Shown one piece after another: positions 16,827 to 45,858 of a stretch of DNA of 64,000 nucleotides. The notes beneath the pieces are model-generated. The model had not been told where the DNA came from. It did not search any database and was given only the letters and a program-made list of their open reading frames with translations. The stretch spans positions 106,996-170,995 of the forward strand of contig CAZKVR010000001.1 in the NCBI GenBank assembly GCA_964556395.1, in the 5' to 3' direction. Within the stretch, counting starts at the first letter, position 1. Each line of letters begins with the position of its first letter. The position numbers and the translations under genes were made by a program. Origin of the DNA: an uncultured Methanosarcinales archaeon (GTDB taxonomy: Archaea > Nanobdellota > Nanobdellia > Woesearchaeales > WJKR01).

Positions 16827-17555
16827 TCATCCCAAGACGTTCAGGAGACCATCCCAGCGTTTGAGGAAGAAAGGGAGTGAGGTCGTCATCGGTCCTGAGA
16901 GGTCGTCCTCCTCTGATGCATGATGTTCGTCCTTTACGCCCCAAGAGTTTGAGCGGTCATTCCATACGATGGTGTAGAGGTGTGAACCTGATTCTTCTAA
17001 CAGGTCTCCGCAGTATAGAGGCTTGCCTCTATATTTGTAACCGGTCTCCATACCTTTCGCTGGTCGTTCTCGCCATTCAAGTCTTGAGAGGAGAATCGCC
17101 CTCACGTAGGGGTCTATGACTGTGAGCGTCCCTTTCTTCTGGTTTATCGCCTTGAGCTGCCTTCGTGACGTGCTCTCGATCCATGTCGCAAGGGGGTAGC
17201 CACGGAGGCTTTCCAGGTTATAGGGTATCTCTGACTCCCATATGTGCAGGGGGTTGTTGAGTATCGCATACGCGGTTGAGGGGAGGTAGATATCCCTTGT
17301 CAAGCGTTTCCGATAAAATGTGGGAAATCTTCTCTTGATGACCCACGGTATCTTATCGAGAACGTATGATACCCCATATAACAGTGAGAGCGATAGTATG
17401 ATGACTATCGGACCTGCTACGAGCATTCCTTGGGACTGGTATAACAACCTGCCAAGGACGATCCATGTGACGGCTATGAGCATTACGGCCAATACTGGTA
17501 CGAGCATCATGAGCGCCGTCTTTTCAGGCATTCTTCTTCTTATTATCTTCTTCAT
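16827..17555 (-). CDS. Membrane protein
   Basis: Two N-terminal TM helices are present. Confidence 0.5.
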   Translation of the reverse strand: MKKIIRRRMPEKTALMMLVPVLAVMLIAVTWIVLGRLLYQSQGMLVAGPIVIILSLSLLYGVSYVLDKIPWVIKRRFPTFYRKRLTRDIYLPSTAYAILNNPLHIWESEIPYNLESLRGYPLATWIESTSRRQLKAINQKKGTLTVIDPYVRAILLSRLEWRERPAKGMETGYKYRGKPLYCGDLLEESGSHLYTIVWNDRSNSWGVKDEHHASEEDDLSGPMTTSLPFFLKRWDGLLNVLG

Positions 17556-17977
17556 TTTCGCGAATTTTTATGTTCTTGTCCGATACTTATTCTGGTGAGG
17601 TATTCTTCTGCCTGTTCTTTCGAGCAGACCAGTTCTGGAAGCCCATCAAGATTCATGAACTGGAGGTATTTCCAGAGCTTTGGGGACGGCATCAGATACA
17701 TCCTTGTCGCTCTCGTAACCGACCTGAAGAGGCGGCTGCAAAGTAGGATGGCGTGCATGCCGTAGAGGTCTATGCTCTCGACTCCTGTGAGGTCGAGGAT
17801 TATAGGGATGTTTCTCTTCATGGTTGCGGAAGCTTCCACGAATTCGGACTTGAAGAGTTTTAAGTCCTGATTGTTGTTCTTATCGCCGTTCGTCAGAGCG
17901 GCTCCGGGGGCGACCTCTAGTATAGCGTAGAGCATGCCGTCACCCGTCTTCGAGTATGATTCTGTTAGTATCCTCAT
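17552..17977 (-). CDS. STAS-domain protein (SpoIIAA-like anti-sigma-factor antagonist fold)
   Basis: The segment IILDLTGVESIDLYGMHAILL matches the STAS core pattern. Confidence 0.55.
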   Translation of the reverse strand: MRILTESYSKTGDGMLYAILEVAPGAALTNGDKNNNQDLKLFKSEFVEASATMKRNIPIILDLTGVESIDLYGMHAILLCSRLFRSVTRATRMYLMPSPKLWKYLQFMNLDGLPELVCSKEQAEEYLTRISIGQEHKNSRK

Positions 17978-20548: not shown

Positions 20549-20929
20549 TTAGAGGAATGCCACGACACCGTATTTTAGGTCTTCCAGGCTCGTGTAGAAT
20601 ACCAGTTTCTTCCTGCTTATCCCGAGTATCTTGGCTTTGTTCGCTATCCTGTCCGGAACGATGAGATGGCAGGTGATGTCTTTCTCACCAGCCAGTTCTG
20701 CTATAGGGACGAGAGTCTCGAGATATGAGGTCTGGATGCTCCTAAGGTCTATGGCGACGTTTTTTCGTCCTTTGAGGATGCTATTGACGTGCCTCTTGAG
20801 GAATAAGACTGTGAGCTTCCGATTCTGTATTGGTCGTCTCTTCAGAGACAGTAAGGGCATCTCGCCTCTTAAGGTTTTTATGGAACCTTCAGGCTTGGTG
20901 ATCTGATTGTTAGCATTCTTTTTTTCCAT
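20549..20929 (-). CDS. STAS-like small protein
   Basis: The region VAIDLRSIQTSYLETLVPIAELAGEKDITCHLIVPDRIANKAKILGI resembles an anti-sigma antagonist. Confidence 0.4.
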   Translation of the reverse strand: MEKKNANNQITKPEGSIKTLRGEMPLLSLKRRPIQNRKLTVLFLKRHVNSILKGRKNVAIDLRSIQTSYLETLVPIAELAGEKDITCHLIVPDRIANKAKILGISRKKLVFYTSLEDLKYGVVAFL

Positions 20930-26603: not shown

Positions 26604-28640
26604 CTACTTATTGGTGGCTAAAACTTTATCCACTTGTGCCGTGTGGTTCACCCGGGCGTACTTGGTCCAACCCTTCTCAGACCGTTCCTCCTCGACGAGG
26701 ATGGCGTCCTTCTCCTCCAGGGACTTCTTCACCTCGTTCCCCTTCCGGGGAGAGAAACCCGCTTCCTTATACAATTGCGATATCGGCATGCCGGGCTTGT
26801 CCTTCGCCGCCTTGAGGAATGCCAGCTCCTCCGCAGAAAGGCTGAGGGGCTTCTCTGCTCGAGCAGCAGCCTTTCTCGCCAGTCTCTTCGCCAGGCCTGA
26901 CCGTTTGATGTACTGGAACGTGTGCATGACATCCGCCCGTTTGAATCCTGCTTGCAGGAACCATTTCCGCAGTTCGTCGAAGCCTTCCCCGTTGAGCATG
27001 CGCTTCTTCGCCTGGTCGAGAATCTTCTGCTGCAAATGATTGCGGATACCATAGCCCGCCGGCCCGTCCTGCACCTTCTTGTGGTGCTCGTCCTGCGCCT
27101 GCTGCGCCGCTTTACGCGCCTCGTCGAATTGCAGGTGTTCTTTCAGCACGGTCCTGTTCGGCTCGGTCCCGCTCTTGATGAACGTGTACTCGAGCTTTGA
27201 GAGTTTCCGCGCCAGTTCTTCTTCTTTCACGCTTTTCTCGAAGACTTCTTTGCGTCTCTTCGTCTTGAGCAGCGCCTTCATCCGCTCTCGCAGATCGTCA
27301 TCGTCGATGGCCTGGCTTTTCAGCCTCATCAAGGGTGCCTTGATGACGAACGGCTCGTGGTGGCGTTCCACCAGTCGCACGAGCGCCTCACCCACTGGCA
27401 ACTTGGTGAAGAACTCTTTCTGGTCGCGTAGTTGCATGAGCCTGCTGATGGCTTCCACGTCCGCCGGGAGCATCTGTTGGAAGGCGATGTTCGTCGCCGA
27501 GTTACCTGACACGACGTCGGACAGCTTGCTGACGTGCTGGTCCAGCGTTATCAATGAGACGCCGTACTCTCGGATCTCTCGGAAGATGACGTCGGATATC
27601 GATTCGGAGATGAAGTTGGGGCGTTCCTTGAGGAAGATGTTGTGCGCCTCGTCCACCAATACCGCGTAGCGGAACTTCTCGGTCGGGTCGATGTTGCCGG
27701 CTTTCGCGTACTTGTAGATGTAGGAGAGCATGAACTGGGTGAAGAACTTCTTCTCAGTGTTGGACAGCGCCGCCAGTTCCATGACGGTCTCTTCGCGGAA
27801 GAGCTCTTCGATGCTGCTCTCCTCAGGCCCCTTGTAGCAGATGGCTTTCCCGAAGTTGCCGAACGTCAAGGCATAGGCGACTCGCAACGCTGATTCGAGC
27901 CATTCCGACTCGCGTGTCTTCCGAGTCTGGGCTTGCGCCTTCTCTTCCAGCCGGTCCCTGATCTGGTACCATGTCGGGTAGTTTTCCGAGCCCGCGTAGA
28001 CTCCGAAGTCCTTGTACGCCTTGTCCAGGGTTTCGACGACTATCTTGTGGACGCCGAACGATCCTGCGAACACTTCTGTGATGATGTCTGCCAGGAGGCT
28101 GACCCATTCCAGTGGTTCGACGCCTTTGGGTGGCTTGTTGATGTTGAGCTTGAAGTTGGCGACCTTGTCGTTGCCGACCGTGTACACCCTGAGCTTGTCG
28201 TTCAGCTTTACGAGTGGCCGGAAGCTTTTCTTCCAGTCGAAGACGAGGAATGGTTTCTTGTTGAAGATGAAGTTCCCTAGGACTTGGAATGCGAAGGTGG
28301 TCTTGCCGGATCCCGACATGCCAGTCACACAAACATGCCGCATCCAGTCCTGTTCTCGCAAACCAAAAGGATAGAGTTCTTTCTTACCGTACATCACCGT
28401 GCCGAGGGGGTACTTGCCTTGGATGACGTCTTTCTTCGGCGGTTCCAGGAGCAGTTGCTCGTTCAACAGACTGTCGGTCAGGTGTTTTTGGTACAGGGCG
28501 TTGATGGCTTGTTCCATCTCGGCTTTGGCGTCCCTGTCCGTGGTGAGGACGTATTTGAGGTAGAGTTGGTCGATTCTCTTGCCGAATATCGGCCTGAGCC
28601 GCCTGCAGATGTCCTCGACGCTGTTCGTCCGGCTGTGCAT
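26604..28640 (-). CDS. HerA/FtsK-superfamily (DUF87-like) P-loop ATPase with a C-terminal winged-helix domain
   Basis: Walker A is GMSGSGKT, Walker B is VLVDEAHNIF, and a sensor ITLDQ is present. A C-terminal HTH-like stretch reads MPISQLYKEAGFSPRKGNEVKKSLEEKDAILVEE. Confidence 0.75.
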   Translation of the reverse strand: MHSRTNSVEDICRRLRPIFGKRIDQLYLKYVLTTDRDAKAEMEQAINALYQKHLTDSLLNEQLLLEPPKKDVIQGKYPLGTVMYGKKELYPFGLREQDWMRHVCVTGMSGSGKTTFAFQVLGNFIFNKKPFLVFDWKKSFRPLVKLNDKLRVYTVGNDKVANFKLNINKPPKGVEPLEWVSLLADIITEVFAGSFGVHKIVVETLDKAYKDFGVYAGSENYPTWYQIRDRLEEKAQAQTRKTRESEWLESALRVAYALTFGNFGKAICYKGPEESSIEELFREETVMELAALSNTEKKFFTQFMLSYIYKYAKAGNIDPTEKFRYAVLVDEAHNIFLKERPNFISESISDVIFREIREYGVSLITLDQHVSKLSDVVSGNSATNIAFQQMLPADVEAISRLMQLRDQKEFFTKLPVGEALVRLVERHHEPFVIKAPLMRLKSQAIDDDDLRERMKALLKTKRRKEVFEKSVKEEELARKLSKLEYTFIKSGTEPNRTVLKEHLQFDEARKAAQQAQDEHHKKVQDGPAGYGIRNHLQQKILDQAKKRMLNGEGFDELRKWFLQAGFKRADVMHTFQYIKRSGLAKRLARKAAARAEKPLSLSAEELAFLKAAKDKPGMPISQLYKEAGFSPRKGNEVKKSLEEKDAILVEEERSEKGWTKYARVNHTAQVDKVLATNK

Positions 28641-33023: not shown

Positions 33024-33149
33024 GGCGGTGGTGAGAATATGGTTCTTCTTAAGGGTTTGGATGGTGGTTCTCTAGAAAACCAGTTGAATATTAAAAAAAC
33101 CAATTGGTTTCCAAAAAGTTTATATAGTTTCGAACGAAACCAAAAGAAT

Positions 33150-33722
33150 ATGGAAGGAGTCAATAAGGAAAGCTATGAAGAAGAGGACGCTTATACGAAG
33201 GTGTTGTACTGGTTCTTCGCCCACCCCACCATTGAAGTCAGCCTCAACGACCTCGTCGAGGCGGTGAACATCTCCAAGACCTCGGCGAACAAGGCCGTGC
33301 ACAGGCTCGTGGATGAAGGATTCCTTCGCCTCAAGCAGCTGGGACGGCTGTGGCGCATCACTTGTAACCAAGAGCACGAGTACAACATCACCAGGAAAGT
33401 CCCGTTCAACCTCCAGACAGTCTACCAGGCAGGCATCCTCGAAGAGATTCGCAAGCGCATCCCGAACCCCCGCGCAGTCGTGCTCTTCGGCAGTTATCGC
33501 AAGGGCGACGACACGGAGGAGAGCGACATCGACATCGCAGTGGAAGTGATGGATGACAAGGATTACAGGATAGTGGAATTAGGGGTCCTCACGACCTTAG
33601 GTTTCCGCGAGCACGTGCCCGTCAACCTGCACGTATTCTCACGCAACCATGTGGACCTCAACCTGTTCGCCAACATCGCCAACGGCATCGTCCTTGAAGG
33701 GTTCCTGGAGGTGCGACCATGA
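33150..33722 (+). CDS. MNT-type nucleotidyltransferase with N-terminal wHTH (antitoxin of a HEPN/MNT pair)
   Basis: The GS...DxD motif reads VVLFGSYRKGDDTEESDIDIAV. A TATA box TTTATATAG lies 24 nt upstream of the ATG. Confidence 0.75.
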   Translation: MEGVNKESYEEEDAYTKVLYWFFAHPTIEVSLNDLVEAVNISKTSANKAVHRLVDEGFLRLKQLGRLWRITCNQEHEYNITRKVPFNLQTVYQAGILEEIRKRIPNPRAVVLFGSYRKGDDTEESDIDIAVEVMDDKDYRIVELGVLTTLGFREHVPVNLHVFSRNHVDLNLFANIANGIVLEGFLEVRP

Positions 33723-34105
33723 GGAGGAAACGTCCCGATATCAAGAACGCCGACAGCCTGCTGGAGGCCAGCAAGAACACCCTGAGGTTCACCATGAAGC
33801 TGGAGGTGTCGGAGGAGTCGGCCGACACTATCATCAGGAACGTGCACGAGGCGTTCCGGATGCTCGGCGAGGCATTGCTTCTCAAGCAAGGAGGGGTCGC
33901 CGTCGATCACACCCAGCCGATCGAGGCCCTCATCCGCACGAACGTCCAAACAGAGAGGCCCTTGTCGGTGTTGACGACCATCAGGAAGACGAGGCATTCC
34001 ATCAATTACTACGGCTACCGGCCGACGGTGGCGGAAGCGCGGGATGCGGTGTCTGTGGCCGAGGCTTGTTTCGACAAGCTGGCAGAACATGTCAAGAGCC
34101 TATAG
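33719..34105 (+). CDS. HEPN-domain protein (putative toxin partner)
   Basis: The protein is all-alpha and about 128 aa. It contains an RKTRHSINY Rx(n)H-like motif and overlaps MNT by 4 nt. Confidence 0.55.
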   Translation: MRRKRPDIKNADSLLEASKNTLRFTMKLEVSEESADTIIRNVHEAFRMLGEALLLKQGGVAVDHTQPIEALIRTNVQTERPLSVLTTIRKTRHSINYYGYRPTVAEARDAVSVAEACFDKLAEHVKSL

Positions 34106-35263: not shown

Positions 35264-35851
35264 ATGGCAGGAGACAGGCTCATCCACGAGGAATTCATAC
35301 AGGCCAAGACAGACCCCCTCATGAGAGAGGCAGTGATGGGCAAGGTGTGGACGAAAGCATACCACATCGCGTCGAGATACACCCGCTCATCAGCAGAGGC
35401 GGAGGACATCGCCCAGGAAGCCTCGTTGAATGTCCACAAGAACTTCCACGTCTACGGCAGCAAGAGGCAGAACAACCCATACGCATGGGTGCACACCATC
35501 ACCACGAACATCTGCGTAAATCACTACCGGAGGCGGCCGAAAACCCCCATCATAAGCCTCGACGAGGAGGAAAGGGCAGAGGGCCATACCAGGATGAAGA
35601 GGGATGTCCCGGACGAGCGCAACAACATCGAGGACTACCTCAACCTCAAGGAGTGCGAGGAGGTGTTGGCCAGCCTGCCTGAAAAGAAAGGGAAGGCCTA
35701 CCTGTTGTCCTATCTCGAAGGATACAAGTACGACGAGATCGCAGCGATCACCAAGGAGCGGATGGGCACCGTGAAAAGCAGCATCCATAGGATGAGAGAA
35801 CGGGCGAAAGAGCTGTTCCAGGAACGCGCTCCCGTCTACATCAGGAAGTGA
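35264..35851 (+). CDS. ECF-type RNA polymerase sigma-70 factor (regions 2 and 4)
   Basis: Region 2 reads AEDIAQEASLNVHKNF...YAWVHTITTNICVNHYRRRP. Region 4 reads LPEKKGKAYLLSYLEGYKYDEIAAITKERMGTVKSSIHRMRERAKEL. Confidence 0.8.
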   Translation: MAGDRLIHEEFIQAKTDPLMREAVMGKVWTKAYHIASRYTRSSAEAEDIAQEASLNVHKNFHVYGSKRQNNPYAWVHTITTNICVNHYRRRPKTPIISLDEEERAEGHTRMKRDVPDERNNIEDYLNLKECEEVLASLPEKKGKAYLLSYLEGYKYDEIAAITKERMGTVKSSIHRMRERAKELFQERAPVYIRK

Positions 35852-37980: not shown

Positions 37981-38009
37981 AAAAAAAAGGCTGCGGAGAT
38001 GCAGCCTTT
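37981..38009 (-). terminator. Hairpin AAGGCTGC-GGAGAT-GCAGCCTT plus T-run (minus), 3' of gene 38022..38912
   Basis: An 8-bp stem is followed by 8 T on the minus strand. Confidence 0.6.
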
Positions 38010-38021
38010 GATTTGCAGAGT

Positions 38022-38912
38022 TCAACGATCCACAGGCACGAACTCGAATTCTATCTCATCAGTATCATTGAAGCCGAGCTCGGAAAAAAAGAACAATGCA
38101 TGATGATTATCATCAAGCGGTCTTTGGAAGATGACACGGAAACCCCTGCCATCCTCATCGACATCTCCAGTACATCTGAGCTTGCACTCTTCGTATGAGT
38201 ATTCAGGAGAACGTGAGTATCTGCTCCTATACCTATCATATTTGATATCATAGATGCGATTGAAATGCCAACCTATCAGACCGCCTCGGTGTTTCATCGT
38301 TGCAGGGTGGATTTCGGCTTGTTTGACAAAATAAATCTTCTCGCCATACGTGTACCTCGAAAGGTACTTGCGATATATCTTATCGAATGAATCCTTCCAC
38401 CCATCCGAAATTGTGTTCCGTTTCCTGATGGTCCAAGCGAAGACTCCGGACCCGTCAACAGGATCGACATCAGCGTACGCTATGATACAGGTTTGTTCCA
38501 TATAGTTATCGCGGCGGAACAGAGAGGACTTCTCTTCCTCCTTATAGACACCAACATAATATCCGCGTGGACGCGGAAATACGGGTTCGAACGAAGAGGT
38601 AGAGAACTCGAAATAGTTTACTCCTTCCTCGACATGGATCGTGTGCTCTTCTATAGAGCCGTCACCTGACTTGATAGCGAGCGTGTGCTTGCCAGTATCG
38701 ACATCTCTGATAGGGAGCCTGCCATACACCTTCTTGACATTGAATGATGAGTCGATCACATCGTATTCGTTAGATGTGAATCCCTTAAATTCCCCATCGA
38801 GGTAGACCCCACAGCCAGGATCGCCTGAAACACCTAGCGTTTGCGCGACCCCTTCGATGCTGAGCATCGCGAGAAGGAGTCCGAATGAACTGATAAGAAA
38901 TGATGTTTTCAT
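38022..38912 (-). CDS. Secreted PEGA-like domain protein (paralog 1)
   Basis: The start is at MKTSFLISSFGLLLAMLSIEGVAQ. A CxPGxxVYLD...G.H.L pattern is shared with gene 38993..39766. Confidence 0.55.
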   Translation of the reverse strand: MKTSFLISSFGLLLAMLSIEGVAQTLGVSGDPGCGVYLDGEFKGFTSNEYDVIDSSFNVKKVYGRLPIRDVDTGKHTLAIKSGDGSIEEHTIHVEEGVNYFEFSTSSFEPVFPRPRGYYVGVYKEEEKSSLFRRDNYMEQTCIIAYADVDPVDGSGVFAWTIRKRNTISDGWKDSFDKIYRKYLSRYTYGEKIYFVKQAEIHPATMKHRGGLIGWHFNRIYDIKYDRYRSRYSRSPEYSYEECKLRCTGDVDEDGRGFRVIFQRPLDDNHHALFFFSELGFNDTDEIEFEFVPVDR

Positions 38913-38992
38913 AATTATTATTTTTGTGAGTTTATTACAATTAGTTTTATTTGATGTTCTGGACGTCAAGACGCCTTTTCTCAGCGAGAGAT

Positions 38993-39766
38993 TCAATAGG
39001 GTGAAGAAGGCATCGGCACGAACTCGAAAGTCAGCTCCTTATTGTCGAATATCTTATCATACCCTTTCGTGGAGCGCAGGCGAAGGGTGAAACCCTCGCC
39101 ATCCTCTTTTATCCGGCCATTCCCGATCAGGATAGGCTTGCTACCGCTATGCTGGCTGGCAGATAATATCATACGGACACTCACATCGCCAGAAGAAGCC
39201 ACTTTCATCTCCCCTGAGAAGAGGGTCGTATAACGCTTCTGACGCAAGTCCTCGATGTCATAGACATCGAGAAAGAAACCGTAGAACATGTCCTTGAAGG
39301 TGTAGGAGTTCCTGCTTTCATCCCCATACCTCGAAAAAGGCGCCCACGTGAATTCGATGTTTTTAGTGGTCGTGTCGTCCTCACCCATATAGAGCATGAG
39401 GTGATGGTGTATCGTGGTTGATTTGAACAACGATTTCTTCTCCTCTACATTGTAGGAAGCGACATAGTAACCGTCCTTGCGAGGGAAACCAGCACTCTTA
39501 TCGATGTTGACCACAAGTTCGTTCACGCCTTCATGGATGTCGAGAGAGTAGCGTTTCACGAATCCCGTGCTTTTCTTCACCGTGAGTTCATGAGCCCCTA
39601 GGGCTACATCGTCGATGAACAGACCGTCCTGCGCGTCGCTCGTGACGCCTTTGAGCGTGTCATCGAGGTAGACCCTGTAGCCCGGCTCGCAGATGACAAA
39701 AAGTTGTTGTGATACTCCTTCGCTCCAGAGAGCGAAGAGCATGATAATAAAGATTAGATGTTTCAT
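38993..39766 (-). CDS. Secreted PEGA-like domain protein (paralog 2)
   Basis: The N-terminus is MKHLIFIIMLFALWSEGVSQ. It is arranged in tandem with paralog 1. Confidence 0.55.
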   Translation of the reverse strand: MKHLIFIIMLFALWSEGVSQQLFVICEPGYRVYLDDTLKGVTSDAQDGLFIDDVALGAHELTVKKSTGFVKRYSLDIHEGVNELVVNIDKSAGFPRKDGYYVASYNVEEKKSLFKSTTIHHHLMLYMGEDDTTTKNIEFTWAPFSRYGDESRNSYTFKDMFYGFFLDVYDIEDLRQKRYTTLFSGEMKVASSGDVSVRMILSASQHSGSKPILIGNGRIKEDGEGFTLRLRSTKGYDKIFDNKELTFEFVPMPSSPY

Positions 39767-39979
39767 GAATCATAAGATTTGAAGTTTGACAAATGTTTTG
39801 AAAGATACGCCGTAGGTTCCGACTGCTCCGAGAACCACCCCCCATCATTGAGCCAACCCGAAGGTGGTGTCGAAGGATGGTATCACGACACCTCCACCAT
39901 AGTGATGGCGCCGTGATTGCTTTCATAAGCATTGTTTGTTTCATAAGCTAACGAGCGATACAATAATTGTTTATAACTA

Positions 39980-40453
39980 TCAGTAGGAGATGACCCCCCA
40001 TCCGAGACTGACCTCGAACGCAGGGACTATTTCAGGCGCCCCGAAAGCGACACCACCTCCAAACCTGAAGTCGAAGTTTTCTCCTAAGATAAAACGGTAG
40101 CCGGTGACGACGGCGATAACATCATAATACGTGTCAGACGCGTCCTCAGTCACCATGACGTAGTTCGTTAAATTAGAGGCAAATAAGAAGTAGCCTGACT
40201 GAAACGGATCGGGTTCGAAGAAAAAATTGACACCTACTCCGGTTACAACATCACCATTCGGTTTCCGTCCTCCATATCCTAATGAATAGCTCAAAGAGTA
40301 ATTGTTTGAGACGTCAAGGAAGTGTTCGAGGCCAAAGACACCTGTGATAGTAGAGGCTCCTCCCCGGAAATACCAGATATCTTGAGATTGCGCTGGTCGC
40401 GCCATCAGCAACGTGATGGCCGTGATTGCGATGATAAGGATTGTTTTTTTCAT
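39980..40453 (-). CDS. OMP-like beta-barrel protein
   Basis: A signal peptide is present. TGYRFILGENFDFRFGGGVAFG-type amphipathic strands run to an aromatic C-terminus (ISY). Confidence 0.55.
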   Translation of the reverse strand: MKKTILIIAITAITLLMARPAQSQDIWYFRGGASTITGVFGLEHFLDVSNNYSLSYSLGYGGRKPNGDVVTGVGVNFFFEPDPFQSGYFLFASNLTNYVMVTEDASDTYYDVIAVVTGYRFILGENFDFRFGGGVAFGAPEIVPAFEVSLGWGVISY

Positions 40454-40504
40454 GATGTAAAGGTTTTTGAGTTATACAATGTGTTCTCGTGAATTGATGT
40501 AGGG

Positions 40505-41080
40505 TTATTTCAGCCACGGCTTCCACAGCGCGAACCCTGCTCTGATTTCGAGGTAGAGTCCGCTTGCGATGTAGCTGTGCCTGTAGCCGGCTCCCGCTTT
40601 TATGAAGTAGTGGTCTCCTGCGAACCTGTAGCCGAGCGTTGCCGTGATGGCTGGAGTCCAGCCTTCGGTCTCGCCGTCGTGCGTCCGTTTGTAGGTGCCT
40701 TGTTCTGCGTTCGTCAGGAATCCCGCGCTGAGGTATGAGCCGTCGTTCAGGATTGCGCCGTTGATCGCGAGGTCGAATCCGAAGGACCATCGGTCTTCGA
40801 GAGGTCCTGGTTTCCCGAGCCTGACGTCGAGGGCTACCCGGTCGTAGTTGAATGATACTCCTCCGTAGGGGATGGTGTACCAGTCGAGGCCTCCCATGAG
40901 GTATATCTGGGTTTCGGCTCTCGTTTCCGGCAGTCCATGGTTGTAGTATCGCGGACGGTGCACTTTCTTAGGGGTGTAGTTCCGTCCGAACTTGCTCTTC
41001 TCGTCCTCTTGTGAGGATGCTTGCTGTGCTCCTGCGATGAGCAGGAGTGATGCGATCGCTGTGATGAGTGTGCTTTTCAT
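40505..41080 (-). CDS. OMP-like beta-barrel protein
   Basis: A signal peptide is present. Segments TATLGYRFAGDHYFIKAGAGYRHSY and LYLEIRAGFALW show the same pattern. Confidence 0.55.
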   Translation of the reverse strand: MKSTLITAIASLLLIAGAQQASSQEDEKSKFGRNYTPKKVHRPRYYNHGLPETRAETQIYLMGGLDWYTIPYGGVSFNYDRVALDVRLGKPGPLEDRWSFGFDLAINGAILNDGSYLSAGFLTNAEQGTYKRTHDGETEGWTPAITATLGYRFAGDHYFIKAGAGYRHSYIASGLYLEIRAGFALWKPWLK

Positions 41081-41450
41081 ATCTGTGGTTTTTCGGGTTT
41101 TTACTGTGTTTGTTAGAGATATCTCTAGCGCTTCGTGCGCGGCGAGAGCCTCTCTGTCAGGGTTTTCCGGTGTTTTTGGCTCTCTGTCTGTCGCTGGTGT
41201 TCGCGTTGGCGTAGGGTTTCCCTTTTTTCTGCGCTTTCGCGTTGTGCCAGGCGTTGACGGCGGGCGTGTGCAAGGGCATGGTTCATGCTGGTGTTCTTGT
41301 TGGCCCTGTGGCCGTCGTGCGTGTTTGGTGGTTTATAGTGACTACCAGAGGATGACGAATAGTATAAAAATGTTTACGTGAAACAGGATAAATTCTATAT
41401 AGAAATTAATTCCCGCAACTCATTTAAACCACCTCTCCGCCGCCGAAGAC

Positions 41451-42922: not shown

Positions 42923-43828
42923 ATGAAGATCGTCTTCCTCGGCACCGGCGGCATGGTGCCGACCAAGGACCGGAACGTGCAATCGACCTACCTCGAATAC
43001 CGGGGAGAAGGCATCCTGATGGACTGCGGCGAAGGCACGCAGCGCCAGATGAACCTCGCAGGCATCAACCGGATCAAAGTAAGGAAGATACTCATCAGCC
43101 ACTGGCACGGCGACCACGTCGCAGGCCTCATCGGCCTCATCCAGACCCTCGGCAACATCGACGAGCCAGGCACGGTACGGCTGTACGGCCCGGAAGGCAC
43201 GAAGGACTACCTGGACCACATGCTGAAGTGCTGCTCGTTCGACATGCGCCTCGACCTCCAAGTACAGGAGATCAGGCCCGAGGACGACGAGCCCGTCACG
43301 TTCTTCGAGAACGACCGGTACGAACTCCAAGCAGTGAGGCTGCGCCACAGCACCCCTTGCCTAGGCTACGCCTTCGTCGAGAAGGACCAGCGCAACATCA
43401 GCATGGCAAAGGCCGAGAAACTAGGACTCGAAGAGGGCCCGGTCCTCGGCAGGCTCCAGAAAGGGGAGACGATAACGAAGGACGGCGAGACCATAAGCCC
43501 GGACGACGTCTCCACCATCAAGAAGGGCCGGAAGGTCTCGTTCGCACTGGACACCGAGCCGTGCCCCGGCCTGAACAACCTCGCCCGGGACGCGGACATC
43601 TTCATCGCGGAAGCCACGTACGAATCATCCTTGGATGAGAAGGCCGAGGAGTACAAGCACCTCACCGCCCAGCTCGTCGCCCAGGTCGCCTCGCAGGAGA
43701 ACGTCAAGAAACTCTACCTCACTCACTTCTCCCAACGCTACAAGACACCTGAGAAGCTGGAGGAGGACGCCAGGAAGGTCTTCCCAGACACGGTGTGCGC
43801 GTACGACTTCCTCCAGGTCAAATTATGA
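42923..43828 (+). CDS. rnz: Ribonuclease Z (tRNA 3'-processing)
   Basis: The HWHGDHVAG metallo-beta-lactamase motif is present. The size and termini are typical of short RNase Z. Confidence 0.85.
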   Translation: MKIVFLGTGGMVPTKDRNVQSTYLEYRGEGILMDCGEGTQRQMNLAGINRIKVRKILISHWHGDHVAGLIGLIQTLGNIDEPGTVRLYGPEGTKDYLDHMLKCCSFDMRLDLQVQEIRPEDDEPVTFFENDRYELQAVRLRHSTPCLGYAFVEKDQRNISMAKAEKLGLEEGPVLGRLQKGETITKDGETISPDDVSTIKKGRKVSFALDTEPCPGLNNLARDADIFIAEATYESSLDEKAEEYKHLTAQLVAQVASQENVKKLYLTHFSQRYKTPEKLEEDARKVFPDTVCAYDFLQVKL

Positions 43829-44041
43829 GCGGTCCTTGACGACGAGCCTGATGTCCTCGTCCTTGATAGTCTTGCGGCCGGCGTGCTGCGCGACGCGCGC
43901 CGCCTTCTCAGCGATATCTTCCGCGACGCGCTCCATCTCCATCTTCAAGGCGGCCTTAGCCCCCTCGCTAATGCGGAGACCGGTGAAATCCCTCAATAAT
44001 CGCTCCATCGCGGCCAATGGAAGTCCTTTTTTCATGACCAT
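43823..44041 (-). CDS. Archaeal histone (HMf-like)
   Basis: AQHAGRKTIKDEDIRLVV matches HMfB ARHAGRKTIKAEDIELAV. The protein is 72 aa. Confidence 0.9.
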   Translation of the reverse strand: MVMKKGLPLAAMERLLRDFTGLRISEGAKAALKMEMERVAEDIAEKAARVAQHAGRKTIKDEDIRLVVKDRS

Positions 44042-44238
44042 GGTCGAATCACCCGCAATTCCGTAAAAGGAGGTTGTTCTAAAGCTTTTCGGCCCACTGG
44101 ACAGGGACGGGCGAAGGGTTTAAGAAGAGCTTTTTCTAAAGGACAGGGGAAAACAAAAATAGCCGGGAATCCCGGGAAAAACAAAAAAACCACCTAATCC
44201 CGGGAAAACTATATAAATGAGAGACCATTACGACCACT

Positions 44239-45192
44239 ATGCGCATACACCTACCTAACAGCGCGTTCCTCGGCAACATCGACCCAGTCCTCAAAAGATT
44301 CGACCCGAGCGCACCCGACAAGCTCACCATCACAGCGAACGAGCACTGGATATCGATCCATCCTATCGTCGTAGCGATGATAGGCGCTCTAGGCCATGGA
44401 ATGGAAAGAGAGAACATCGAGTGGCAGAACAGGACCGCAAAGTCGTTCCACTACCTCCAGCGCATCGGGCTGACCAAACACATCCCGACGAAAGCCCAGG
44501 ACGACATCACGGAGCACGAGCCCGCGGGACGTTTCATACCCCTTACCAACATCAGGGACGCAGAAGGGCAGACGAGGTTCATCAATGATATGATACCACT
44601 CCTACACCTCGATTACGAGCAGGCAGAACCAATCAAGTATGTCATCAGCGAACTCCTCCGGAACGTCCTCGAACACGCCCACACAGCAGCAGGCGCATGG
44701 GTGTGCGCCCAGTACTACCCCAAGACCAAGAGAGTGGGCATCGGCATCGCAGACACCGGCATCGGGCTGAAAGCCAGCCTCGAAAGAACCCACCCTATCA
44801 CGACGGACCTCGAAGCCATAAGGTACGCCCTCATGCCAGGCGTATCGGGCTCCGCAGAGCAAGACCTCAACGCAGGAGCAGGATTATTCTTCACCAAGAC
44901 CATCGCCAAGGCGAACAAGGACTTCTTCGTCACCTACACCGGCAACGCGTCGTACAAGCTCCTCAAACCCGACAGTAAGACAAGGCGGCCGAGATACTAT
45001 GCGGACCCGTTCAAGGACCGCCACAACACCAACGAAGGCCTGCCATACTGGCAAGGCACGGTCATCGGCATCGACATCTCCACGGACAACACCACCGCAT
45101 TCTCAGAACTCATGCAGGAGATGAGAGAACTCTACACAGAGAAGCTGAAGGAGAAGAAAGAGATAATCAAGGTGAGGCCGAAGTTCACATGA
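44239..45192 (+). CDS. GHKL-family ATPase (histidine-kinase-like ATP-binding domain) with a ~140-aa N-terminal region of unknown function
   Basis: An N-box ELLRNVLEHAH and a G1 box DTGIGL are present. A TATA box TATATAAATG lies 28 nt upstream. Confidence 0.65.
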   Translation: MRIHLPNSAFLGNIDPVLKRFDPSAPDKLTITANEHWISIHPIVVAMIGALGHGMERENIEWQNRTAKSFHYLQRIGLTKHIPTKAQDDITEHEPAGRFIPLTNIRDAEGQTRFINDMIPLLHLDYEQAEPIKYVISELLRNVLEHAHTAAGAWVCAQYYPKTKRVGIGIADTGIGLKASLERTHPITTDLEAIRYALMPGVSGSAEQDLNAGAGLFFTKTIAKANKDFFVTYTGNASYKLLKPDSKTRRPRYYADPFKDRHNTNEGLPYWQGTVIGIDISTDNTTAFSELMQEMRELYTEKLKEKKEIIKVRPKFT

Positions 45193-45467
45193 ACATCAAC
45201 ATACGGGAAGAAGCAGGAACATTCGCCGAGAACAAGGATAAGGCAGCCGCCATGAGAGAGAGGATGCTGCCAACCCTAAAAGATGGAAAAGAAGTGACCC
45301 TCGACTTCGGAGGGGTTGACGGAGCGACACAGTCGTTCATCCACGCCCTACTTGCCAAGCCGATGAGGGAACTGTCATCAACGGTCCTTAACCGCATAGA
45401 GTTCAAGCGCTGCAACGACCGTGTGAAGGCCATCATCAGCACCGTCACAGACTACCTCCAGGAGTGA
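45189..45467 (+). CDS. STAS-like small protein (DUF4325-type), partner of the GHKL ATPase
   Basis: The protein is 92 aa and contains VTLDFGGVDGATQSFIHALL. It overlaps the upstream gene by 4 nt. Confidence 0.55.
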   Translation: MNINIREEAGTFAENKDKAAAMRERMLPTLKDGKEVTLDFGGVDGATQSFIHALLAKPMRELSSTVLNRIEFKRCNDRVKAIISTVTDYLQE

Positions 45468-45471
45468 AATC

Positions 45472-45858
45472 ATGTCGCACAAGAGCAGAGGCATCAACGC
45501 CGAGCGGGACCTCATCCACAAGTTCTGGGAGCAAGGCTGGGCAGCCCTCAGGGCGGCCGGCTCGGGCTCCTCGCAATTCCCTGCGCCCGACGTGGTGGCG
45601 AGCAACAACGTGCGCAAGCTGGCCATGGAGGTCAAGCTCACCACGGAGTCGAGGAAGTACTTCACGCAGAAGGAGATCCGGGAACTACTCTACTTCGCCG
45701 AGAAGTTCGGCGCCGAGGCGTGGGTGGGCGTCAAGTTCTTCCGCCGACCGTGGGCGTTCCTCGCGGTGGAAGACCTTGAGGAGACGGGGAAGTCGCACGC
45801 CGTCACGCCGGAGATCGCGGAGCGGCGCGGACTCTCCTTCGAAGAGCTGATAGGGTAG
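45472..45858 (+). CDS. hjc: Holliday junction resolvase Hjc
   Basis: The protein carries ERDLIHKFWEQGWAALRAAGSG...PDVVAS...EVKLT... in the Hjc pattern. Confidence 0.9.
   Translation: MSHKSRGINAERDLIHKFWEQGWAALRAAGSGSSQFPAPDVVASNNVRKLAMEVKLTTESRKYFTQKEIRELLYFAEKFGAEAWVGVKFFRRPWAFLAVEDLEETGKSHAVTPEIAERRGLSFEELIG

What the first reader, a model, noticed from the sequence alone, without database searches (positions are those of the whole stretch)
44239..45467. GHKL ATPase + STAS-like (DUF4325-type) two-gene module next to Hjc. Partner-switching-like parts list in an archaeon
A 317-aa protein has a C-terminal histidine-kinase-like ATPase fold (ELLRNVLEHAH N-box, DTGIGL G1-box) and an unassigned ~140-aa N-terminal domain. 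It is translationally coupled by a 4-nt overlap to a 92-aa STAS-like protein (VTLDFGGVDGATQSF). The window holds two further STAS-like ORFs (17552..17977, 20549..20929) and an ECF sigma factor. These are the components of bacterial RsbW/SpoIIAB (GHKL kinase) plus RsbV/SpoIIAA (STAS) partner-switching. The GHKL protein is twice the size of RsbW. Co-occurrence of GHKL and DUF4325-type STAS also recurs in conflict and defence contexts. The function here is open.
Basis: partly seen in the sequence, partly recalled or inferred. Interest (0 to 1): 0.7.

Follow-up and report, generated by a model that had tools for sequence, protein, structure and literature searches.

The report
Self-regulated kinase and STAS-partner gene pair
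A Woesearchaeota archaeon carries a two-gene switch, a protein kinase and the small protein it probably phosphorylates. The pair resembles a DNA-damage-sensing pair described in bacteria in 2026, but here it stands alone, carries its own conserved DNA control site, and has moved between archaea, bacteria and phages.

Summary
The two ORFs are real. K runs 44239-45192 (317 aa) and S runs 45189-45467 (92 aa), joined by an ATGA overlap.

- **S:** a DUF4325/STAS protein that matches the VapS crystal structure. T47 is invariant and sits at the N-cap of helix alpha-2, the canonical STAS phosphosite.
- **Conservation:** K and S always occur together in about 87 loci from DPANN archaea, bacteria and phages. 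No third gene is conserved and there is no defence-island context. Single-chain K-S fusions exist.
- **New here:** a 17-bp palindrome, TACCGGGAWTCCCGGTA, overlaps the pair's promoter in 77 of 87 loci. It sits next to TATA boxes in archaea and around -35/-10 boxes in bacteria. A phage clade has a different palindrome in the same layout.

The pair is most likely an autoregulated CapK/VapK-type phospho-switch, a new stand-alone variant. Its output is unknown. In this lineage Hjc appears to be co-transcribed with it. The ECF sigma gene is real but lies 9 kb away. The two "further STAS" ORFs are not supported. Classical partner switching is unlikely.

The parts
44161..44177 (.). Distal operator: AGCCGGGAATCCCGGGA. 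The core CCGGGAATCCCGG at 44163-44175 is an exact match to the family palindrome TACCGGGAWTCCCGGTA.
   Evidence: It is the only exact core match in the 64-kb window. Across the family there are 112 sites (<=1 mismatch) in the 12.1 kb upstream of K in 77 of 87 loci, against 3 sites in 675 kb elsewhere.
44197..44205 (.). Proximal half or short site ATCCCGGGA. It abuts the BRE/TATA element.
   Evidence: Read from the sequence. The orthologous locus L005 has TTCCCGGAA at the same place before its TATA box. Archaeal-type loci generally carry an extra half-site near the TATA box or transcription start.
44209..44217 (+). Archaeal TATA box CTATATAAA, about 26 nt upstream of the ATG. This implies a leaderless or near-leaderless K-S(-Hjc) transcript.
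   Evidence: Read from the sequence. Nineteen related loci show the same TATA-type layout and 35 show a sigma-70-type -35/-10 layout. The promoter assignment is inferred from consensus, not measured.
44239..45192 (+). K, 317 aa. Residues 1-122 form an N-terminal alpha/beta STAS-like domain (W37, H41-P42, GRFIP 97-101). Residues 126-281 form the GHKL kinase domain (E138, N142, D172xGxG, N211AGAGL). Residues 285-317 form a C-terminal helix and basic tail.
45189..45467 (+). S, 92 aa. A single DUF4325/STAS domain. The predicted phospho-acceptor is T47 (codon 45327-45329), inside the invariant motif A-T-Q-S-F.
45472..45858 (+). Hjc Holliday-junction resolvase. It is lineage-specific cargo, probably co-transcribed with K-S.
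   Evidence: NCBIfam Hjc 7.5e-39. It starts 4 nt after the S stop, has a GGAG 8 nt upstream, and has no TATA-like element in between. The order is the same in L005. Hjc is not adjacent in the other loci.

Best explanation
K-S is a self-contained, autoregulated phospho-switch of the CapK/VapK type.

- **K** is a Ser/Thr protein kinase. Its GHKL domain is of the anti-sigma-kinase kind and is preceded by a STAS-like sensor domain.
- **S** is its dedicated STAS substrate. It is made in fixed ratio through the ATGA overlap and is phosphorylated on T47, at the N-cap of helix alpha-2. S49 is the alternative acceptor.
- **Resting state:** a module-encoded protein occupies the palindromic operators that overlap the promoter and represses the operon. 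The best candidate is the basic K protein, alone or in complex with unphosphorylated S.
- **Trigger:** by analogy with CapK and VapK, single-stranded DNA from damage or infection binds between the two K domains, near W37, and activates the kinase.
- **Result:** phospho-S changes partner or oligomeric state and the operon is derepressed. In this Woesearchaeote that would also raise Hjc.
- **Output:** not encoded next to the pair and unknown.

Shown here: the folds, the motifs, the strict pairing, the operator and its position, and the homology to VapK and VapS. Inferred: kinase activity on S, which subunit binds the operator, the nature of the signal, and any effect on Hjc.
For: - **Homology to the characterised systems.** The K profile aligns with the kinase of a Deinococcus K-S-PIN operon over both domains: probability 98.8%, E 5.8e-17. 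W37 aligns with its W53, next to the published VapK F54 (PMC13373217). The S profile hits the VapS crystal structure. The VapS phospho-Ser falls between T47 and S49.
- **Acceptor.** T47 is the N-cap of alpha-2. Position 47 is always S or T, also in natural fusions, whereas position 49 can be G.
- **Functional linkage.** S follows K with a 4-nt overlap wherever the contig allows, in about 80 loci. Single-chain K-DUF4325 proteins exist: 8 of 10 long homologues tested, and phrog_5816.
- **Self-containment.** No neighbour family occurs in more than 4 loci. The next gene is convergent in 32 of 66 loci.
- **Autoregulation.** The 17-bp palindrome is enriched roughly 2000-fold upstream of K. Site centres peak in the -50 to -41 and -20 to -11 bins from the ATG. 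Sites flank -35/-10 in bacterial-type promoters and the TATA box in archaeal-type promoters. The 37%-identical phage clade keeps the layout with a different palindrome.
- **DNA-binding candidate.** The K family is basic (median pI 9.4) with a conserved basic C-terminal tail. The S family is acidic (median pI 5.6).
Against: - No kinase assay exists for this family. Neither K nor S has a recognisable DNA-binding domain, so the operator-binding subunit is a guess.
- The STAS nature of the K N-domain is not significant by sequence here: hhalign against SpoIIAA gives E 0.076, and Pfam STAS_2 appears only weakly, and only in distant homologues.
- S lacks both the wHTH of CapS and the C-terminal inhibitory helix of VapS, so neither published output applies.
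- The ssDNA trigger is pure analogy.
- The HMM alignments place the VapS phospho-Ser opposite Q48, not T47.
- The operator occurs nowhere else in the window, so no regulon is visible that could explain an output.
Confidence: 0.55

Rival explanations
1. Toxin-antitoxin or abortive-infection pair. K is a toxic kinase that phosphorylates a universal cellular target. S is its pseudosubstrate antitoxin and co-repressor. Infection or damage releases K. This rival overlaps with the best explanation and differs only in the output.
For: - Two small overlapping genes with palindromic operators over the promoter, as in type II TA modules such as hipBA (established knowledge).
- Wide horizontal spread between archaea, bacteria and phages: K is 71.8% identical between a Woesearchaeote and bacteria.
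- Phage copies sit as a moron between head and tail genes. A Francisella prophage carries a 293-aa ORF plus DUF4325 between cI and integrase.
- The relative VapKSC is a phage-protective TA system.
- A universal target would explain function in both domains without a third gene.
Against: - Natural single-chain K-S fusions do not fit an antitoxin that must be degraded or released.
- The pair is stably syntenic between relatives with 63% identical K.
- It sits among housekeeping genes, not in defence or TA islands.
- There is no PADLOC system hit apart from a domain-level DrmA match.
- Toxicity is untested.
Confidence: 0.2
2. Classical partner switching. K is an anti-sigma factor and S its anti-anti-sigma. 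Together they control the bacterial-type ECF sigma encoded at 35264-35851.
For: - The K GHKL domain is structurally closest to SpoIIAB/RsbW. JGI labels homologues as anti-sigma regulatory factor.
- The window does encode an ECF sigma.
- Sigma-70-family genes are reported as prevalent in Woesearchaeota, with no anti-sigma factor identified (PMC8204110).
- In L047 an ECF sigma gene lies directly downstream of K-S.
Against: - A sigma gene lies within +-6 kb in only 1 of about 87 related loci (L047). In the window it is 9 kb away and separated by unrelated genes.
- RsbW and SpoIIAB equivalog scores are 15.8-17.5 bits against cut-offs of 135-145.
- K is twice the size of an anti-sigma kinase and carries the CapK/VapK-type N-domain.
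- There is no conserved PP2C phosphatase: 1 of 120 neighbours has a SpoIIE domain.
- SpoIIAB-type anti-sigmas act on group 3 sigmas, not ECF sigmas (established knowledge).
Confidence: 0.07
3. K is an ATP-driven DNA-binding GHKL ATPase, in the manner of MORC, Topo VI-B or MutL, and not a protein kinase. It clamps or dimerises on the palindromic DNA. S is a nucleotide-state modulator and is never phosphorylated.
For: - Foldseek ranks Topo VI-B first by E-value (2.4e-5).
- E138 lies four residues before N142, as the catalytic Glu does in GHL ATPases (sequence).
- K is basic and the module has a specific DNA site.
Against: - K has no transducer domain.
- An invariant Ser/Thr at the STAS phosphosite of the obligate partner is hard to explain without phosphorylation.
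- The relatives CapK and VapK are kinases (PMC13373217).
Confidence: 0.1

Closest known systems
VapKSC (VapK kinase, VapS STAS antitoxin, VapC PIN toxin; Chambers et al., EMBO J 2026, PMC13373217)
   Same: - K has the same two-domain build (STAS-like plus GHKL, about 300 aa, no HTH) and is homologous over its full length to the kinase of a K-S-PIN operon.
- S is a DUF4325-type STAS that matches the VapS structure 9z7o.
- A conserved Ser/Thr sits at the alpha-2 N-terminus.
- The K-then-S gene order is the same.
- An aromatic residue (W37) sits at the position of the proposed ssDNA-stacking residue.
   Different: - There is no PIN/VapC gene in or near the module in any of about 87 loci.
- S ends at residue 92 and lacks the C-terminal helix (VapS 94-116) that inhibits VapC.
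- A conserved 17-bp palindromic operator lies upstream of K; nothing equivalent is reported for VapKSC.
- The family occurs in archaea and is not enriched near defence genes.
CapK/CapS (same paper)
   Same: - It is a kinase-STAS substrate pair that regulates transcription.
- The regulator binds palindromes that overlap promoter elements, including one of its own promoters.
- The proposed signal is ssDNA.
   Different: - K has no N-terminal HTH. S has no wHTH domain.
- The operator sequence is unrelated (TACCGGGAWTCCCGGTA against TTAA half-sites). It lies upstream of K rather than between K and S or downstream of S.
- There is no conserved downstream immune operon: the next gene is convergent in 32 of 66 loci.
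SpoIIAB/SpoIIAA and RsbW/RsbV partner-switching modules
   Same: - The phosphosite geometry is the same.
   Different: - There is no sigma gene in the operon and no phosphatase.
- K carries an extra N-domain of about 120 aa and a C-terminal helix.
- Equivalog HMM scores are far below threshold.
SiaB/SiaC of Pseudomonas aeruginosa (PDB 6kko)
   Different: It is part of the four-gene siaABCD operon, which includes a phosphatase and a diguanylate cyclase output. No such genes are present here.
Type II toxin-antitoxin operons with kinase toxins (hipBA)
   Same: Two-gene operon, palindromic operators overlapping the promoter, and a mobile distribution.
   Different: - HipA is a Hanks-like kinase, not a GHKL kinase. 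HipB has an HTH.
- The gene order is reversed.
- Toxicity of K is untested.

Membership tests
GHKL (Bergerat-fold) ATP-binding superfamily | N-box with Mg-binding Asn, G1 box DxGxG, G2 glycine-rich box | tested here: met
   E138xxxN142, D172xG174xG176 and N211-A-G213-A-G215 are present, and the N, D and G residues are invariant in 69 sequences. The window protein itself is below Pfam gathering score (21.4 against 26.4 bits). Homologues pass it.
GHKL (Bergerat-fold) ATP-binding superfamily | Bergerat alpha/beta sandwich fold | tested here: met
   [not shown]
Anti-sigma-factor Ser/Thr kinases (SpoIIAB/RsbW) | Sequence membership (NCBIfam equivalogs TIGR01925, NF003144) | tested here: not met
   Scores of 17.5 and 15.8 bits against cut-offs of 135 and 145.
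Anti-sigma-factor Ser/Thr kinases (SpoIIAB/RsbW) | Cognate sigma factor gene in the same operon or neighbourhood | tested here: not met
   A sigma gene lies within +-6 kb in 1 of about 87 loci. In the window the ECF sigma is 9 kb upstream.
Anti-sigma-factor Ser/Thr kinases (SpoIIAB/RsbW) | Binds and inhibits a sigma factor | not testable with these tools
   Needs pull-down or two-hybrid assays with the ORF 35264-35851 product.
STAS / DUF4325 (PF14213) | Profile match above the curated threshold, and STAS fold | tested here: met
   [not shown]
STAS / DUF4325 (PF14213) | Conserved phosphorylatable Ser/Thr at the N-terminus of helix alpha-2 (in phospho-regulated STAS proteins) | tested here: met
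   T47 is invariant in 50 of 50 sequences and immediately precedes helix 48-61. Position 47 is S or T in all fusions inspected. Actual phosphorylation was not tested.
VapKSC | VapK-type kinase (STAS-like plus GHKL, no HTH) | tested here: met
   hhalign gives probability 98.8% and E 5.8e-17 over 253 columns against the kinase of the Deinococcus gobiensis P5 K-S-PIN operon. That operon is assigned to VapKSC by architecture and by 34% identity of its S to VapS, not by experiment.
VapKSC | VapS with a C-terminal helix that inhibits VapC | tested here: not met
   S aligns with VapS chain residues 20-107 only and ends at residue 92, so there is no extension.
VapKSC | PIN-domain VapC toxin as the third gene | tested here: not met
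   The next gene is Hjc. No PIN family recurs among neighbours in the related loci.
CapK/CapS | N-terminal HTH on the kinase and a wHTH domain on the STAS protein | tested here: not met
   No HTH family hits K or S. K starts directly with the alpha/beta domain. S is a bare 92-aa STAS domain.
CapK/CapS | Located upstream of an immune operon that it controls | tested here: not met
   The downstream gene is convergent in 32 of 66 loci and within 100 nt on the same strand in only 15. Neighbours are mostly housekeeping genes.
CapK/CapS and VapKSC | Kinase activated by single-stranded DNA | not testable with these tools
   The only support is a conserved aromatic residue, W37 (aromatic in 56 of 69 sequences), aligned with W53 of the VapK-type homologue.
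Type II toxin-antitoxin module | Autoregulated bicistronic operon with palindromic operator(s) | tested here: met
   That a module protein binds the operator is inferred, not shown.
Type II toxin-antitoxin module | One product is toxic and is neutralised by the other | not testable with these tools
   Needs expression assays.

The most novel reading that the evidence does not exclude
K-S is the missing control system for the bacterial-type sigma factors of Woesearchaeota. K would act as an anti-sigma kinase on the ECF sigma encoded 9 kb away, and S as its anti-anti-sigma. That would mean bacterial partner switching operates inside an archaeon, answering the open point in PMC8204110, which states that no anti-sigma factor could be found for DPANN sigma factors.

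A second, more probable novelty (about 0.35) is that the K-S complex is itself a sequence-specific repressor with no canonical DNA-binding domain. Its 17-bp operator would then have travelled with it between the two prokaryotic domains while the core promoter was rebuilt.
Probability: 0.07. Interest if true: 0.85.

Novelty: new variant of a known kind. Interest (0 to 1): 0.62.

Why it matters
CapK/CapS and VapKSC were described only in 2026, and only in bacteria. In each case an obvious output is attached to the kinase-STAS pair: a wHTH repressor domain or a PIN toxin.

This family is the bare kinase-STAS core.
- It is abundant: thousands of 90%-identity clusters, mostly from DPANN archaea and uncultivated bacteria, plus phages.
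- It has been exchanged between domains at up to about 72-74% identity.
- It carries an almost invariant operator that sits next to a TATA box in archaea and around -35/-10 boxes in bacteria.

This makes three questions directly testable:
1. What does the core module do without an attached effector?
2. How does a STAS/GHKL complex with no HTH recognise DNA, if it does?
3. Do archaea use an ssDNA-sensing kinase as a damage or infection response? In this lineage that would include control of the Hjc resolvase.

It also supplies the only anti-sigma-like candidate so far for the unexplained sigma factors of Woesearchaeota.

Tried and rejected
1. **Extra STAS ORFs.** For 17552-17977(-) and 20549-20929(-), Pfam, phmmer against SpoIIAA, the S-family HMM and hhalign were all negative or insignificant.
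2. **Conserved third gene.** All-against-all clustering of the +-4 neighbouring ORFs in about 87 loci gave a largest cluster of 4 loci. Pfam and PADLOC scans of 120 neighbours found no family in more than 2 of them and almost no defence hits.
3. **K-S as controller of a downstream operon.** Rejected as a general rule. The next gene is convergent in 32 of 66 loci.
4. **Regulon search.** The operator core occurs once in the window; the 2-mismatch matches are at chance level. The exact 17-mer was found in 29 viral contigs. None of these is next to K or S, several are terminator-like hairpins, and the number is about what chance gives by my rough estimate.
5. **Palindromes as mobile-element ends or recombination sites.** Rejected. 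They occur only upstream of K, at fixed distances from promoter boxes, and never downstream of S.
6. **Sigma linkage.** Only L047 and the window have a sigma gene in reach.
7. **Sequence searches of K and S against the PDB with single sequences** gave nothing. Only the S profile reached VapS.
8. **Fold of the K N-domain.** Foldseek on the whole K model listed only GHKL hits and no STAS hit for the N-domain. K profile against S profile showed no similarity. K profile against SpoIIAA gave a collinear but insignificant alignment.
9. **Genome-contig scan with the single protein** returned only one locus.
10. **Plasmid and phage GenBank hits** are distant GHKL relatives with other architectures and were not pursued.
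11. **P0131**, the closest "fusion", looks like a frameshift artefact. The more distant fusions look genuine.
12. **Complex modelling of K+S** was not attempted, because model coordinates are not returned.
Full report
**Observation**

The window holds ORF 44239-45192(+), 317 aa, here called K, and ORF 45189-45467(+), 92 aa, here called S. The K stop and the S start share ATGA. Hjc follows 4 nt after the S stop (NCBIfam Hjc 7.5e-39). An archaeal histone gene (43823-44041, minus strand) and an RNase Z-like gene lie upstream.

Pfam places S in DUF4325 (2.4e-12, above gathering). For K it gives only sub-threshold HATPase_c and HATPase_c_2 hits. Cluster mates above 90% identity are annotated in GenBank as "ATP-binding protein" and "STAS-like domain-containing protein" of a Candidatus Woesearchaeota archaeon.

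An ECF-type sigma ORF does exist, at 35264-35851(+).

**What K is**

- *Conservation.* K has more than 3000 relatives at 90% clustering. In an alignment of 69, N142, E145, D172, G174, G176, G213 and G215 are invariant and E138 is present in 68 of 69. The ATP site is therefore intact.
- *Model.* AlphaFold2 gives pLDDT 86.2 and pTM 0.88. It shows an N-terminal beta-alpha domain (1-122), the GHKL domain (126-281) and a C-terminal helix (285-311).
- *N-domain.* It has the secondary-structure order of a STAS domain. Distant homologues give weak STAS_2 hits there. By sequence, however, the STAS assignment is not significant here.

**What S is**

- *Conservation.* Fifty S homologues share an invariant L38-D-F40 and A46-T-Q-S-F50.
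- *Link to VapS.* The family profile hits one solved structure, 9z7o "Escherichia VapS", over its whole length (E 1.3e-3).
- *Acceptor.* In the HMM alignments the VapS serine falls opposite Q48, between T47 and S49. In natural fusions position 47 is always S or T, while position 49 can be G. In 80 of 81 distinct S proteins from related loci the motif is xTQSF. I therefore favour T47 as the acceptor.

**Link to the literature**

A 2026 paper (PMC13373217) describes two related systems.
- CapK (HTH-STAS-GHKL) is activated by ssDNA. It phosphorylates CapS (STAS-wHTH), a repressor of adjacent immune operons.
- VapKSC consists of VapK (STAS-GHKL), VapS (STAS plus a C-terminal helix, acting as antitoxin) and VapC (PIN toxin).

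Starting from the VapS fragment I found a K-S-PIN operon on Deinococcus gobiensis plasmid P5. The K profile aligns with its kinase over 253 columns covering both domains (probability 98.8%, E 5.8e-17). W37 aligns with its W53, adjacent to the published VapK F54. The two S families align more weakly (E 2.3e-5).

K-S is thus a relative of VapK and VapS. It lacks the PIN gene, the VapS C-terminal helix, the CapK HTH and the CapS wHTH.

**Conservation and distribution**

- *Pairing.* In 93 loci with a K homologue, S lies immediately downstream with a 4-nt overlap wherever the contig and ORF calling allow.
- *Hosts.* These include Woesearchaeota (L001-L003, with ribosomal protein S3Ae and RIO1 nearby). 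They also include clear bacteria: L007 (parAB, F-type ATPase), L008 (Omnitrophota) and L004 (Saccharimonadales). Tailed phages carry the pair between head and tail genes.
- *Identity across domains.* K of the Woesearchaeote L001 is 71.8% identical to the bacterial L007 and L008 proteins.
- *Fusions.* Eight of ten longer distant homologues are single-chain N-domain/GHKL/DUF4325 proteins. phrog_5816 covers both K and S.
- *Neighbours.* No neighbouring gene family occurs in more than 4 loci. Neighbours are mostly housekeeping genes and almost none hit PADLOC. The next gene is convergent in 32 of 66 loci.

**New finding: a conserved operator**

- *Enrichment.* Upstream of K, 77 of 87 non-redundant loci carry one or two copies of the palindrome TACCGGGAWTCCCGGTA. 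There are 112 sites with at most 1 mismatch in 12.1 kb upstream, against 3 sites in 675 kb elsewhere. Site centres peak in the -50 to -41 and -20 to -11 bins relative to the ATG.
- *Bacterial layout.* In 35 loci the order is palindrome, TTGACA, palindrome, TATAAT.
- *Archaeal layout.* In 19 loci, including the window, the palindrome lies upstream of a TATA box and there is an extra half-site.
- *In the window.* The exact core is at 44163-44175, a half-site at 44197-44205, the TATA box at 44209-44217 and the ATG at 44239.
- *Phage clade.* The clade that is 37% identical keeps the same architecture but has a different long palindrome around TTGACA.
- *Interpretation.* The operator is specific to this promoter, it moved between the two domains while the core promoter was rebuilt, it co-diverges with the proteins, and no third gene is conserved. 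The binding protein is therefore most simply encoded by the module. K is the better candidate: its median pI is 9.4 and it has a conserved basic C-terminal tail (R296, K304, K307, R313, K315, F316). S is acidic, with median pI 5.6. This assignment is an inference.

**Mechanism proposed**

K-S is an autoregulated phospho-switch. K, alone or with unphosphorylated S, represses the promoter. A signal activates K; by analogy this is ssDNA bound between the two K domains. S is then phosphorylated on T47, the complex changes and the operon is derepressed. In this archaeon that would also raise Hjc.

The physiological output is unknown. It may be kinase action on other targets, as in a toxin-antitoxin or abortive-infection system, or a partner encoded elsewhere.

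Rivals considered are a TA pair with K as the toxin, classical sigma partner switching, and a non-kinase DNA-clamping GHKL ATPase.

The sigma idea has some appeal. Sigma-70-family genes are reported as prevalent in Woesearchaeota with no anti-sigma factor identified (PMC8204110). Gene context does not support it: a sigma gene lies nearby in only 1 other locus.

**Verdict**

The partner-switching parts list is not there. The pair is a new stand-alone variant of the recently described CapK/VapK-STAS systems. It extends them to archaea and phages, and it has a previously unnoted, near-invariant operator.

Noticed in passing
window 35264-35851 (+): This is a bacterial-type ECF sigma factor gene in a Woesearchaeota contig (Sigma70_r2 6.7e-14, Sigma70_r4_2 3.1e-11, Sigma70_ECF 5.6e-5). 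It lies directly upstream of a nucleotidyltransferase-like gene. PMC8204110 reports such sigma genes as prevalent in Woesearchaeota, with no known regulator.
   Followed up: partly
window about 1900-26000, all genes on the minus strand: A low-GC block (44-52% in 2-kb windows, against 53-61% over most of the rest of the window) holds about 35 co-oriented ORFs. Many have signal peptides or transmembrane segments. None of 10 tested hit Pfam, and 8 of another 10 had no PHROG hit. No tRNA gene is present. It may be a foreign island or provirus of unknown kind, or a lineage-specific surface-protein locus.
   Followed up: partly
window 38000-41100 (-): A second low-GC patch (47%) encodes four secreted proteins with N-terminal signal peptides. 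It is embedded in high-GC archaeal housekeeping sequence.
   Followed up: no
window 33039-34105 (+): A wHTH-nucleotidyltransferase ORF (NTP_transf_2 2.6e-9) overlaps by 4 nt a weakly HEPN-like ORF (HEPN 0.0056). This looks like a MNT-HEPN toxin-antitoxin-type pair.
   Followed up: no
window 26604-28640 (-): A HerA-like ATPase of 678 aa (DUF87 1.8e-7, HerA_C 1.8e-5) is followed by a 162-aa ORF. It sits at the boundary of the low-GC block.
   Followed up: no
L083 3194-4239 (-); L034 8572-9330 (+); L036 4059-4787 (-): A second, smaller GHKL-like protein (242-252 aa, with a MerR-like HTH N-terminus in L034) lies within a few kb of K-S in three loci. In L083 it sits next to its own 97-aa DUF4325-like ORF. 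This may be a different HTH-GHKL plus STAS pair.
   Followed up: no
L047 7516-8091 (+): An ECF sigma factor gene lies directly downstream of K-S (274-nt gap) in a locus with a bacterial-type promoter. It is the only such case among about 87 loci.
   Followed up: partly
PADLOC model PDLC02567 (DrmA, 1750 positions), positions 75-251: Residues 70-245 of K match the N-terminus of a DISARM DrmA model (3.7e-19). Some DrmA-type defence helicases therefore appear to carry a K-like STAS/GHKL module at their N-terminus.
   Followed up: no
window 43823-44041 (-) compared with L005: The archaeal histone gene between RNase Z and K has no counterpart in the otherwise syntenic relative L005. It was either gained in this lineage or lost in the other, directly beside the K-S operator.
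   Followed up: partly
L001/L002 14872-16960 (+): About 6 kb from K-S in a Woesearchaeote lie a 623-aa HATPase_c_3 (MORC-like) protein and, next to it, a 341-aa protein with a faint Sigma70_r4 hit. This may be another GHKL-centred system.
   Followed up: no
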